Below are positions 2,610 through 13,619 of a stretch of 64,000 bases of DNA, in pieces. A model generated the notes under the pieces. It did no database searches. It saw nothing but the letters and a program-made list of their open reading frames with translations, and was not told the origin of the DNA. Source of the DNA: Eledone cirrhosa (taxonomy: Eukaryota). Numbering within the stretch: the first letter of the stretch is position 1; every line of letters starts with the position of its first letter. The translations under genes and the position numbers were made by a program. Location of the stretch: positions 46,810,001 through 46,874,000 of the forward strand of contig OZ024741.1 of the NCBI GenBank assembly GCA_964016885.1. The letters run 5' to 3'.

Positions 2610-3791
2610 CTAAACGGACGGTAGTCCGTTTAGTAATATTGTTGTGGTCGTGTTTTCGTTGGCAATCGTCTGTTTACAACAGTACAGCGCGGCTCCACTT
2701 TATTTAACTGAGATAAAACTTATATGAACATGAACAGTAGATCATTACGCATCTTTTGGCTTAAACATCTAGAAATTTGGTCGAGCGGGAAAAAGTTTAT
2801 AATCAAAGTTTGCTGATAAATCTTGTGTTCAAGTGAGTGAGTAGTAAGCGTGACGCTGTGTGCATTTGATGCATCTATGAGAATCGGCCCGAGATAACAA
2901 GGGGAGGTAATTACGAGTCTCTCCCTCTCTACGGGATCATCCAGAAATGGCGAATTTTTTTCGGCGGAACTCTTGTGATTGTGATTACGTTAGTCAAATG
3001 TAGTCAAATCCCCTCCTCCTAATTGACTATGTCATTTCTGAGCGGCCCTACTTGCGTCAGTGTGAAACATTACTTCACTTTTCACTGCTAAAATGCTTTT
3101 TAAATACTTCGTTAAAAATTTATGTTTATTATCAAAGCTATTTTTTGTACCAATCTATCAATAGTTTGCGAAAACATAGGTAAACATGTGAGTTAAATTT
3201 TTTTTAATCGCATCGATCGCTTTGTCGCACCGACTGTGACACTGTCTGACTGACACCTTTGTCGGACCGACACCTTTGTTCAAGCGGACAACTTTGTGTC
3301 ACTGACACCTTTGTTCGTGCCGGCATCTCTGCGAAACACCGATGACAACAACCAGACCAAAATTTCACTTCATTCTTCATCAAGACCGATCGCCGACCGA
3401 TCGTATCGGTTGCTCTTCATATACCAGGTATTCAACAGATAGTTTGCACTTCTAGTATTATTAACAGTCGTGCGATTTTTTGTACCGATAGGTGCGAATA
3501 GTGCGCTATATTTTTGTACCGATAGGTGCGAATGGTGCGAATAGTGCGATAGGTGCGAATAGTGTACAATATTTTCTGAGATTTGCATCCACTAATTTCG
3601 CTTAATTAAAAATGATGTTTCGCGGCTTTTTGATCGGCTTATTCATTTTTTCCATGGCACGGAAATGGAGTATTTCCATTTCGAATCAAAACTTTTCACT
3701 AAAATCGGGCAATTGGACTGATCAAATTCACATTCATGCCAGTTTTTACAAATCCAAAAAACGAAATTATCCTATTTCCAATCAGAAATAT

Positions 3792-3854
3792 AGAACGCGC
3801 GCGTTAATCTTATCATTACTCATAATCGGTTGTGTCGAATTAAATCCTGGACCT
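3792..3854 (+). other. 2A-like (StopGo) peptide motif RTRALILSLLIIGCVELNPG|P
   Basis: In frame in ORF 3612..4577. It matches the hydrophobic helix plus G-(D/C)-V-E-x-N-P-G-P pattern. Confidence 0.7.
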
Positions 3855-4717
3855 GAATTTGAATTCAATGAGACTGACAAAGATCAAAACATTGATAAAG
3901 AGAATGAAAAACAGAGAAAGACTGCAATTAGGAATAGGGAGTACAGACAACGGAAAGCTGCAGAAATAAGAGAAAAAAGACAATCATACGAAGCAAAATT
4001 TAAAAATAAGGCATGGCAAAAAGCATATAGACTGAGAAGAGGCGATGAGGGCAAAAGTCAGGAGGCATCGTATCAAAAAGTGCGCAGACTGAGGGCAGGT
4101 GATGAGGGCAAAAATCAGCATGCATTGAATCAAAAAGAGCACAGAGTGACAGCAGGCGATGAGGGCAAAAGTCAACAGGCATTGTATCAAAAAGCACACA
4201 GATTGAGAACAGGAGAAGAAGGAAAAGAAAAAGATGCCAGATATTTTTCACATTATTATTTTACAAATGCATGGTTGATACAACAAAAACACAAATTTTT
4301 GTACAGAAAAAAACGAATTCAACAATTTAAAGACATTCGCAAAGGGAAATCATGTTACACAAATTCACAAAATCATATTTGGCTTCAAAAAAAGAAAAAC
4401 CAAAAAAATCGGGCACAATATAGGAAGAAATTCAAACAGGGCCTTGAAAAAGTTTCCAAAATCTACAGAGAAGCACAGGGAATTCGAAATTTCATATTTA
4501 ATGAATTGAAAAAAACAATGGCTTCAGTTTATGCACACATCAAATTAGCTAAGAAGGAGGGGTTGACTGCATACTGAGGGGAAATATTTTACCATACTTT
4601 CACAAATGAACACTTTCTATTCCCAAAAAGTACAGTTGATTATTTTCCTCTAACACAACTTGAAAACCACAAATTTCTGACTGATGACTGTCCAACAAAT
4701 GAGTGCAGGTGTAAAGA

Positions 4718-5126
4718 TGGTGATGAGCCAAGTGAGGGAGGTGCACAAGGAGAGGGAGGTGAGCAAAGTGAGAAAGGTGCACAAAGAGGGGGAGATGAGC
4801 CAAGTGAGGGAGGTGCACAAGGAGAGGGAGGTGAGCAAAGTGAGAAATGTGCACAAAGAGGGGGGGATGAGCCAAGTGAGAAAGGTGCACAAAGAGGGGG
4901 AGATGAGCCAAGTGAGGGAGGTGCACAAAAGGGGGGGATGAGCCAAGTGAGGGAGGTGCACAAAGAGGGGGGGATGAGCCAAGTGAGAAATGTCCACAAA
5001 GAGGGGTAGATGAGCCAACTGATGGAGGTGAGCAAAGTGAATGTCCACAAAGAGGGGTAGATGAGCCAACTGATGGAGGTGAGCAAAGTGAGACAGGTGC
5101 ACAAAAAGAGGGGGTGAGCAAAGTGA
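4718..5126 (+). repeat. Purine-rich minisatellite, ~39-bp unit (13-aa G/E-rich linker, e.g. DEPSEGGAQRGG) inside the RepHel coding region
   Basis: About 10 copies of GATGAGCCAAGTGAGGGAGGTGCACAAAGAGGGGG and variants. Confidence 0.9.
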
Positions 5127-11828: not shown

Positions 11829-11888
11829 GCCATCCAGATATCATGTGACCATTTTTGGTTCGCGGTGTCCACATGATATCTGGATGGC
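11829..11888. repeat. Perfect 19-bp inverted repeat (hairpin)
   Basis: GCCATCCAGATATCATGTG (11829-47) pairs with CACATGATATCTGGATGGC (11870-88). Confidence 0.9.
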
Positions 11889-12109
11889 CCTTTATACTAA
11901 TTAGTCATTTATCTGCATAAAAATTATACCAGATCATTCTGATTATTGGCTTGAAATCTTTTACAAAATTAGTATGAGCAACTAAGAGGTCATCAATAGA
12001 AATAGAATTACTTTTTGAAATTTTCATGCACAGCATTTTTTGGGATTTTAAATAAAAGTTAATATCATAATTCTTATTTTGTATACCCACATTGCAGATA
12101 CAGAGAAAC

Positions 12110-13500
12110 ATGACAATCCTATATAAAGGTCGTAGACAGCAGTATCAGTTTTTATCCAATATGAGCAAATTAAACAGTCCACTGAATTTATTGGAATGTT
12201 CATTCATCACAGTTGAACATGCTTATAAGTACATCAAGACCCTATTTTATGGAAGAAATGACCAACTCTGCCACATTTTGGCAGAAAAAGACCCATTTAA
12301 GTAAACATATCCCATACATATTTGATTAAAGTTTACAATGCTATTTTTTTTATAGATTGTCAACTTTCTGCAAAGAGAGAGATTTCAAATGGGAATCAAT
12401 CCAGTTTGATCTCATGGTGGTACTGTTGTCAATGAAATTCGAAAATGATCCTCTACTGGCATCAAAACTTGGTGACACGGGGACTGTATGTACATGTGAC
12501 TAGGGTTGCAAACGGTTTTTTTACCATTAAAAAAACCAGTAAAAAACGGTTAAAAAACCGTTTTTTACCAGACTTGAAAAAGTTTCCAAAAAAAGTTACA
12601 AACGGTTTTTTTACCATTAAAAACCAGTAAAAAACGGTAAAAAAAAAACGTTTTTTGAGGGAAAAACCATTTGAATCTAGCTTATTTCTTGAATATTTGT
12701 AGCAACAATTGGTCGAGGACACCCCTAATCCAATTTGGAGGCGAGGATTTAATGGGAATGGTACAAATCTCCATGGCTGTTGTTTAATGGTCGTCCGTGC
12801 ACTTTTGAATAAAAATCACCCACAATTCAACTATATTGTGGGTGATTCAATAATTAGAAATGTGGCGAAATCGAATGACCAGAAGGTATAAAAATATTAA
12901 TTCAAATGTATTTACTTATCATACCAACAAAATACTTAGATATTTTGTATACCTGGGGCCCGTCAGGGCCAGGTAATGTTAATCGCCAACATTGTTATTT
13001 GTTGTCCTTTTGTGAAAGTATTGGTGGTTCATGTCGGCTCTAATGATCTGAATCCTCGTCGCACCGTTGGCACTACAAAGCTGTGCAAAGTAATACAATA
13101 ATTTTTGCCCAAGTATTTTTTATTAATCATTTATTTGTAAATTAAGGACAAAGTGCCCATTCGAGGCACAAAACCGGAAAAACAGGGGAAGAGTCTCTTT
13201 GCAAGGCTACAGAAAATAGCGGAAAAGCACCACTGTACACCCATTTTCTACAGTGGTGTCATTCCATGTCCACAAAGTGTAATTGAAAATAAAAATGACT
13301 TGGGCAATAGAAATTCTCGTTTGGAAAAGTTTAATTACTGCATGAAAGAAATGATTCAAAAATTGAACTTGCCCAATCTTCACAACATTGAAAATTGGTC
13401 AAAATTTGACAAATCTGACTTCAAACTAAATATGATTCATTTGAACAATGTTGGAAATCTTAAATTGACACAAATTTTTGCCAATGTTTTTGCCACCTGA
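12110..13500 (+). CDS. Spliced NADAR (YbiA-like) + SGNH/GDSL hydrolase fusion gene, 335 aa; exons 12110-12300, 12356-12485, 12703-12885, 12940-13089, 13147-13500
   Basis: All four introns are GT-AG and phase-compatible, giving 1008 nt with no internal stop. NADAR motifs: FLSNM, FITVEHAY..K, WESIQFDLM, KF.NDP.L..KL.DTG..LVED, IW..G.NG.GTNLHG..LM.VR. SGNH blocks: IVGDS, IPGA, VVHVGSNDL, IHLN..G. AATAAA at 13538. Confidence 0.85.
12501..12670. repeat. Small MITE-like/tandem insert within intron 2 of the NADAR-SGNH gene
   Basis: Starts TAGGGTTGCA and holds two copies of CAAACGGTTTTTTTACCATTAAAAA(AA)CCAGTAAAAAACGGT with internal palindromes. It explains why intron 2 (217 nt) is longer than the others (54-57 nt). 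Confidence 0.55.
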
Positions 13501-13619
13501 TCCTTGTTCTATGGCTGACTGACTAATTTTGTGACTTAATAAAATGTCATCATACTAGTAATGCACAATGGTCATTTTTAAATTTAAATTTTATTAAATA
13601 GTTGTTGCTTGCATTGCCT

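What the first reader, a model, noticed from the sequence alone, without database searches (positions are those of the whole stretch)
2610..13560. Virus-like rolling-circle element: 2A motif + Rep + Pif1 + USP protease + NADAR-SGNH cargo
One ~11-kb same-strand unit carries a ribosome-skipping-type motif, an HUH Rep/Pif1 engine, a deubiquitinase-like protease, an ADP-ribose-type hydrolase and an esterase (components seen). Helentrons are known to add AP endonuclease, OTU protease or SET domains (established). No AP endonuclease is seen here, and the cargo is a set of modification-erasing enzymes like those of large RNA and DNA viruses. Hypothesis: a new Helentron lineage that counters ubiquitin- and ADP-ribose-based responses to its covalent Rep-DNA adducts and ssDNA intermediates (inference).
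Basis: partly seen in the sequence, partly recalled or inferred. Interest (0 to 1): 0.85.

Follow-up and report, generated by a model that had tools for sequence, protein, structure and literature searches.

The report
Helitron with 2A signal and NADAR cargo
A family of rolling-circle jumping genes in an animal genome keeps a strongly conserved virus-style 2A peptide at the front of its transposase, likely to split or throttle the protein during translation, and one branch also carries a spliced gene predicted to encode an ADP-ribose-removing enzyme fused to an esterase; the attached deubiquitinase is already known from related elements.

Summary
All five components are real and lie inside one element. 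It starts at 2607; this copy is dead (at least 7 frameshifts) and cut at 13651, while other copies run about 1.76 kb further. It is an HLE2 (Helitron2-type) transposon: DUF6570, 12-nt subterminal inverted repeats, 5' hairpin, no endonuclease. It is neither a Helentron nor a virus. One ~2,400-codon frame encodes leader, 2A, Rep, Pif1 and UCH.

UCH on HLE2 is published (HELIANO), as are SGNH genes in fish Helitrons (texim) and NADAR in retrotransposons. I found no paper reporting a 2A motif or a NADAR domain in Helitrons. The GCVELNPGP motif fits the published (D/G/C/N)(V/I)ExNPGP core and is strongly constrained between two subfamilies (11 synonymous, 1 non-synonymous change in 30 codons); 6 of 98 relatives carry a canonical motif.

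The five-exon NADAR-SGNH gene lies inside the termini, but only in one of three subfamilies, and no relative carried NADAR, so the proposed lineage-wide counter-modification toolkit is not shown. Skipping, expression and enzyme activity are untested. The scan noted 2A in coral Helitrons and this gene in this genome before.

The parts
2607..13651 (+). HLE2 (Helitron2-type) element, subfamily A; 3'-truncated, decayed copy (full length about 12.8 kb)
   Evidence: 5' boundary shared by 15 of 15 aligned copies; 14 of 14 other copies continue past 13651 with shared sequence; copy C28:42.936-42.949 Mb has both ends and the whole cargo gene, with one exon frameshifted
2607..2644 (+). 5' terminus: ATC, 10-bp-stem hairpin 2610-2633, 12-nt subterminal inverted repeat 2633-2644 (its partner lies about 45 nt before the 3' end in full copies)
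   Evidence: hairpin z -5.0, and subfamily B shows a compensatory pair change; same layout in subfamily C
3612..3764 (+). Short hydrophobic leader ahead of the 2A peptide, poorly constrained
   Evidence: 31 of 48 residues identical A vs B, dN/dS about 1.45 on few changes
3765..3854 (+). 2A/StopGo-like peptide ending GCVELNPG/P (predicted skip site 3851/3852)
   Evidence: 29 of 30 residues identical A vs B, 11 synonymous vs 1 non-synonymous difference; 53 matches in the genome
3612..10866 (+). Broken single polyprotein frame: leader, 2A, basic 19-aa repeats, acidic repeat, DUF6570, HUH Rep, Pif1 helicase, UCH
   Evidence: colinear with subfamily B copy L048 (1,904 codons, one stop, 478+ codons); at least 7 frame changes, 3 stops and a 63-nt insertion at 8454-8516 in the window
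4677..5126 (+). 36-nt tandem repeat expansion coding an acidic linker, frameshifted here
   Evidence: much shorter in subfamily B
5839..6219 (+). DUF6570, a marker of HLE2
   Evidence: PMC11417382 passage
6538..7540 (+). HUH Rep domain (GAPHIH motif; YxxxYxxK tyrosines near 7513)
8538..9800 (+). Pif1-type helicase, broken
10038..10866 (+). USP/UCH (C19) protease domain with Cys box and His box, fused in frame to the helicase in less decayed copies
11826..11891 (.). Strong hairpin between the two genes, not in subfamily B
   Evidence: z -8.6; A-B homology stops at 11824 and resumes at 11949
12110..13500 (+). NADAR-SGNH gene: exons 12110-12300, 12356-12485, 12703-12885, 12940-13089, 13147-13500; four GT-AG introns of 55, 217, 54, 57 nt; 335 codons, open in this copy
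   Evidence: splice dinucleotides kept in all copies that cover them; splicing predicted, no RNA data
13540..13629 (+). Old duplicate (76% identity) of the subterminal segment that precedes the terminal cassette in full copies
13652..15051 (+). Unrelated repeat sequence ending in a hairpin and CTAG (Helitron1-type end) that replaces the element's 3' end; not part of the element
   Evidence: no shared 3' tail; its last 200 nt are a separate high-copy family

Best explanation
This is a decayed copy of an endonuclease-less HLE2 rolling-circle transposon whose single long gene joins a conserved 2A-like peptide, an HUH Rep, a Pif1 helicase and a USP-type protease, and the 2A peptide likely makes ribosomes skip or stall so that the transposase is freed from its short leader and kept scarce. 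Rep would nick at the terminal repeats, Pif1 would unwind the strand, and the copy inserts into T-rich sites without target duplication (mechanism from established HLE biology; termini and site shown). The fused UCH likely removes ubiquitin from the transposase or nearby proteins, as proposed for other Helitron deubiquitinases. The spliced NADAR-SGNH gene is an optional accessory gene of subfamily A: predicted to encode a YbiA-type N-glycosidase/ADP-ribosyl-guanine hydrolase fused to an esterase, perhaps cleaning modified bases on the single-stranded intermediate, but the sister subfamily has spread without carrying it.
For: Termini and copy structure; flanks of copy L036 rejoin into an intact repeat with no duplication. 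One frame in subfamily B. 2A peptide more constrained (dN/dS about 0.02) than the Rep domain (0.09) or its flanks (0.34-1.45); C at the D position is reported as a functional natural variant (PMC12846837 passage; bioRxiv 2026.09.24.754024 passage); canonical motifs near the N-terminus of 6 of 98 relatives, 0.006 expected, at three other places of the tree. Most tested retrotransposon 2A-like peptides lowered protein abundance (bioRxiv 2026.06.17.732966 section 13). Cargo present in A, absent from B and C; NADAR half deleted in most A copies (exon 1 in 5 copies, exon 3 in 7, exon 5 in 150 scored of 292 candidates).
Against: No substitution at D12 kept activity in the P2A or F2A context, and only 139 of 1,969 non-canonical viral motifs were highly active, so this peptide may not skip. 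The dN/dS figure rests on one pair of sequences and 30 codons. 92 of 98 relatives lack the motif (many are N-terminally incomplete; 48 have 900 or more residues before a detected HUH motif), and 0 of 25 metagenome loci with 2.5 kb or more upstream showed it. NADAR and SGNH hits are each sub-threshold. B could have been complemented in trans by A's cargo protein.
Confidence: 0.6

Rival explanations
1. One reading: the lineage carries a coordinated counter-modification toolkit. UCH strips ubiquitin from covalent Rep-DNA adducts, NADAR strips ADP-ribose from guanines in single-stranded intermediates, and a BTB/BACK-like gene in the missing tail could decoy Cullin-3; subfamilies B and C simply lost the cargo.
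For: All genes lie inside the termini. The cargo keeps an open 335-codon frame and four in-phase introns. By motif spacing (my alignment to residue numbers in PMC11543638) the two glutamates and the lysine tied to catalysis are present. The duplicated subterminal segment that brackets the second gene is 76% diverged, so the cargo may predate the A/B split. A 119-codon ORF in the tail resembles BTB/BACK proteins (Atlas 0.92, a lead only). Deletions are common in the family.
Against: No NADAR in 98 relative proteins (precomputed Pfam) or in 81 related loci, of which only 18 reach 6 kb downstream (low sensitivity for spliced genes). Several phosphate-binding positions appear replaced (inferred alignment). 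Animal guanine ADP-ribosylation as an anti-transposon response is not established in the passages read. The esterase has no obvious place in the model.
Confidence: 0.2
2. The NADAR-SGNH gene is a neutral passenger picked up once from another mobile element (both domains occur in retrotransposon ORF1 or Pol proteins) and copied along with subfamily A.
For: Patchy presence; truncated in most copies; no host counterpart found (NADAR family search hit only two element copies, 4 of 4 candidates scored); Helitrons capture genes readily.
Against: Intact frame, splice sites and the SGNH catalytic blocks in the family argue for selection up to the last burst, unless capture was recent; no donor was found.
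Confidence: 0.3
3. The conserved peptide does not recode translation; it is kept as a signal or membrane anchor, or as a protease site that removes the leader.
For: It is a hydrophobic run after basic residues; non-canonical core; dual signal/2A function is reported for sea-urchin 2A-like peptides (PMC4981915, seen as listing and abstract start only).
Against: The exact G-x-V-E-x-NPGP core is kept, which a signal peptide does not need; a nuclear transposase has no clear use for secretion.
Confidence: 0.2

Closest known systems
HLE2 subgroups c and d with UCH (HELIANO, PMC11417382; sections 22, passages and Supplementary Table S11 read)
   Same: RepHel with DUF6570, UCH downstream, no endonuclease, short subterminal inverted repeats, T-T type insertion
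   Different: UCH is in frame with RepHel here (the paper places most extra domains in separate ORFs); 2A, NADAR and SGNH are not among its 20 domains; I had no reference sequences to assign c or d
HLE2-reverse termini (FoHeli3-5, PMC5148889 passages; proto-Helentron)
   Same: Hairpin at the 5' end next to the left inverted repeat, none at the 3' end
   Different: A terminal ~1.1-kb cassette bounded by 137-219-nt inverted repeats in all three subfamilies
Helentrons (HLE2 subgroup b) with OTU or VTD deubiquitinases (PMC9741609 passages)
   Same: A deubiquitinase domain fused to RepHel; protective role proposed
   Different: They carry the AP endonuclease and form a separate clade; different protease class
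texim SGNH genes in fish Helitrons (PMC4021074 passages)
   Same: Intron-containing SGNH hydrolase gene carried by a Helitron, patchy presence
   Different: Here fused behind NADAR, downstream of RepHel; no sequence similarity of exon 5 to the one fish Helentron SGNH protein tested
2A-like peptides of non-LTR retrotransposons (PMC3708506 passages; bioRxiv 2026.06.17.732966 section 13)
   Same: N-terminal 2A-like motif ahead of the enzymatic domains of a single ORF
   Different: Here in a DNA transposon; C instead of D in the core; activity untested
NADAR domains in Gypsy (Ectocarpus) and Tx1 (oyster) retrotransposons (PMC12477816 passages)
   Same: YbiA-type NADAR carried by a transposable element
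   Different: Rolling-circle DNA element; separate spliced gene fused to SGNH

Membership tests
HLE2 (Helitron2 group) | Rep upstream of Pif1 helicase in one RepHel frame | tested here: met
HLE2 (Helitron2 group) | DUF6570 marker | tested here: met
   E 2e-14 window, 9e-18 subfamily B
HLE2 (Helitron2 group) | Short asymmetric terminal inverted repeats plus terminal hairpin | tested here: met
   12-nt repeat and 5' hairpin in A, B; equivalent in C
HLE2 (Helitron2 group) | Insertion between T and T without target duplication | tested here: met
   T before the end in 13 of 15, T after the end in 10 of 10; L036 flanks match empty repeats within a few bases
HLE2 subgroup c or d | Clade membership with reference elements, UCH enriched | tested here: inconclusive
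   Sits in a 15-row clade (SH-aLRT 95) with 6 UCH-bearing relatives, quick tree only, no HELIANO or Repbase references
Helentron (subgroup b) | AP endonuclease after the helicase | tested here: not met
   No Exo_endo_phos hit; UCH takes that place; outside the EN/VTD clade
HLE1 (canonical Helitron) | 5' TC, 3' hairpin plus CTRR, A-T target | tested here: not met
   Starts ATC after T, no 3' hairpin; it does end in CTGG or CTAG
2A/StopGo peptides | (D/G/C/N)(V/I)ExNPGP core with preceding G and hydrophobic tract | tested here: met
   GCVELNPGP; core definition
2A/StopGo peptides | Peptide-bond skipping at G/P | not testable with these tools
   needs a reporter
NADAR (YbiA type) | PF08719 match over the domain | tested here: inconclusive
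   Three colinear exon hits of 18.7, 13.9 and 18.8 bits, each under the 35.1 cut-off; genomic hits 29-31 bits across an intron
NADAR (YbiA type) | Catalytic Glu, Lys (+7) and last-strand Glu | tested here: inconclusive
   VEHAYKYIK and LVED motifs present; equivalence to E43, K50, E125 inferred from spacing in PMC11543638, no structure
SGNH hydrolases | Blocks I (GDS), II (G), III (GxND), V (DxxH) | tested here: met
   All present; block V Asp is Asn in the window copy but Asp in L002, L004, L005; Atlas GDSL clusters
USP/UCH C19 proteases | Cys box and His box | tested here: met
   NACFAN and GHY motifs, PF00443 31.6 bits over cut-off 23.9 in subfamily B; activity untested
Repbase/Dfam catalogued family | Match to an existing entry | not testable with these tools
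   Neither library is held

The most novel reading that the evidence does not exclude
Rolling-circle DNA transposons use viral-style StopGo recoding to process their transposase polyprotein, and this branch adds a virus-like set of erasers (USP, NADAR, esterase and a Cullin-3 decoy-like BTB/BACK fragment) that undo host ubiquitin and guanine ADP-ribose marks, implying that animals ADP-ribosylate transposon single-stranded DNA as a defence.
Probability: 0.15. Interest if true: 0.85.

Novelty: new variant of a known kind. Interest (0 to 1): 0.5.

Why it matters
In the papers read, cellular 2A-like peptides come from retrotransposons and a few host genes; a constrained 2A peptide in DNA transposases, recurring in several HLE2 branches, would extend translational recoding to class II elements and is cheap to test. 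The role of animal NADARs is open (PMC11125620 passage); a NADAR carried by an element that makes single-stranded DNA gives a concrete substrate to test. The architecture as a whole is a new arrangement of mostly known parts, not a new kind of element.

Tried and rejected
Homologue searches with cargo exon 5 and exon 1 found nothing (word-based, weak evidence). PDB sequence searches with exons 1 and 3 gave only chance hits or none. A single-sequence fold of exon 1 was low confidence (pLDDT 59) and was not searched further. No RNA holder listed; no reads were laid. No viral contig relative (0 of 72 pattern hits). Rfam: only sub-threshold hits on the 11.8-kb hairpin, no hammerhead. Rejected: cargo as a chance neighbour or as part of the Helitron ending at 15051; Helentron label; parvovirus-like flip/flop of the terminal cassette (only 2 of 40 scored copies flipped). 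The ~85 weak exon-1 hits appear to be rearranged deletion derivatives of subfamily A (one checked, L071), not a diverged NADAR family. The careful tree did not finish; the quick tree (95 of 98 homologues plus two family members) is used. Literature: Helitron+NADAR 20 papers, 19 listed, only PMC12477816 opened, NADAR there is in retrotransposons; Helitron+'2A peptide' 2 papers, unrelated by title and abstract start; no listed 2A paper contained 'helitron' (17 of 18 listed, 40 of 285); NADAR/SGNH/transposable element/fusion 15 of 71 listed, none on Helitrons. Supplements of the two 2A preprints are closed and could list RepHel proteins.
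Full report
What is there. The region 3612-10866 is one decayed reading frame. Pfam finds DUF6570, Helitron_like_N, PIF1, Pif1_2B, UvrD_C_2 and two halves of UCH in order. Against a better-kept relative in the same genome (L048: 1,904 codons, one stop, then at least 478 codons with the helicase running straight into UCH) the window copy shows at least seven frame changes, three stops and a private 63-nt insertion. The family therefore encodes one protein of about 2,400 residues (inferred), and this copy is dead.

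Boundaries. Genome searches found many copies at 88-99% identity. All 15 aligned 5' ends begin at window 2607, with a 10-bp hairpin and then a 12-nt repeat. All 14 other copies checked continue past 13651 with shared sequence that the window lacks; 10 of 13 tails were aligned at their end, about 1,760 nt further, and all 10 stop at CTGG followed by T, with the reverse complement of the 12-nt repeat about 45 nt before; the other three were interrupted, flipped or truncated. This is the HLE2 layout with the hairpin at the 5' end, as in FoHeli3-5. Flanks of copy L036 match uninterrupted repeats with no duplication. The sequence 13652-15051 belongs to another family. The 12.1-13.5-kb gene is inside the element: copy C28:42.94 Mb has both ends, RepHel-UCH and the gene, and abundant 3.6-kb derivatives join 2607-3767 to 12847-end.

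Classification. DUF6570 marks HLE2 (PMC11417382). A Rep search gave 98 relatives; 17 carry UCH, none NADAR, one an SGNH domain. In a quick tree the family sits with UCH-bearing relatives (15 rows, SH-aLRT 95) inside a 68-row group lacking endonuclease and VTD, apart from the Helentrons (long branches, no reference sequences). HELIANO already reports UCH enriched in HLE2 subgroups c and d; its list of 20 domains has no NADAR or SGNH.

The 2A-like peptide. GCVELNPGP lies about 80 residues after the first ATG. It is not chance (0 of 300 simulations). Between subfamilies A and B the 30 codons ending at the last proline differ by 11 synonymous and 1 non-synonymous change; the leader before it (31 of 48 identical) and the 60 codons after it (dN/dS 0.34) are far freer, and Rep itself gives 0.09. 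Cysteine at the aspartate position is described as a functional natural variant. Against this, D12 changes killed activity in P2A and F2A, and 139 of 1,969 non-canonical motifs were highly active. Six of 98 relatives have a canonical motif near the N-terminus (0.006 expected), at three other places in the tree; none of 25 metagenome loci with enough upstream DNA did. Because the leader is unconstrained, the likely function is the recoding event itself: release of the transposase from the leader, or lower output, as reported for most tested retrotransposon peptides. This is inference; skipping was not tested.

The cargo gene. Five exons with four GT-AG introns in phase give 335 codons, open in the window. 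Exons 1-3 match NADAR colinearly but weakly; exons 3-5 hold the SGNH blocks. The window copy has private changes at conserved positions (WG to WR in NADAR; block V Asp to Asn), as expected for a dead copy. Subfamily B (two long copies, about 87% identical to A) keeps homology on both sides of the gene but lacks it; the eight sampled subfamily C derivatives lack it too. Within A the NADAR half survives in 5-7 copies, the SGNH end in at least 150. No host NADAR gene was detected and no outside homologue (weak tests). Gain in A and loss in B and C cannot be told apart: deletions are common, and the duplicated segment at 13540-13629 is old (76%). SGNH genes in Helitrons and NADAR in retrotransposons are published; I found no paper on NADAR in a Helitron.

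Verdict. What remains new in print, as far as my searches reach, is a selected 2A-like peptide in a DNA transposase and a NADAR-SGNH gene inside a Helitron; earlier notes of this scan saw both separately. The host is probably an octopus (recalled likeness of repeats and earlier notes; not tested). New variant of a known kind; interest 0.5.

Noticed in passing
L039:1332-2432 (beyond window 13651 in full copies); L049:1738-2854; L062/L063 10306-11421 of the concatenated stretch: All three subfamilies end in a ~1.1-kb cassette bounded by long inverted repeats (219, ~190, ~137 nt) that duplicate the terminus; the arms match within a subfamily while the filler DNA is unrelated between subfamilies. 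Flipped in 2 of 40 scored copies. It may be a capture slot or fold-back end.
   Followed up: partly
L039:708-1064 (-), L036:2443-2799 (-): Second cargo ORF of 119 codons, convergent with NADAR-SGNH, open in most A copies checked and absent from B; resembles BTB/BACK (Cullin-3 adaptor) fragments in the ESM Atlas, no Pfam hit.
   Followed up: partly
L049:1971-2585: Filler of the subfamily B cassette is a 205-codon frame with a Cys/His cluster that looks like a LINE ORF1 PHD region (recalled likeness; no Pfam hit).
   Followed up: partly
G000, 34 rows: Many subfamily B copies keep the 2A region in an identical 221-codon open frame; probably a young non-autonomous derivative.
   Followed up: no
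window 4017-4237: Three 57-nt repeats coding basic 19-residue units after the 2A peptide; similar units in some relatives; possibly DNA-binding.
   Followed up: no
window 2212-2606: The element inserted into a hAT/Spin-type zinc-finger remnant (weak zf-C2H2_12 hit).
   Followed up: no
L006:2605-3960 and L040: A subfamily B 3' end is joined to a subfamily A cargo region in one locus, a nested or chimeric copy; lower dS over UCH (0.10-0.17 vs 0.3-0.7) also hints at exchange between subfamilies.
   Followed up: no
L082:10656 (-), L087:10701 (-): GGIEPNPGP 2A-like motif on the opposite strand about 7.5 kb downstream of Rep in two related metagenome loci.
   Followed up: no
P0001; L156: HLE2 sequences filed under bacterial metagenome-assembled genomes, probably eukaryotic contamination.
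   Followed up: no
window 1-786 (+), 915-1820 (+), 15723-18221 (-): Retrotransposon reverse-transcriptase remnants around the element (LINE-like and Penelope-like by eye).
   Followed up: no
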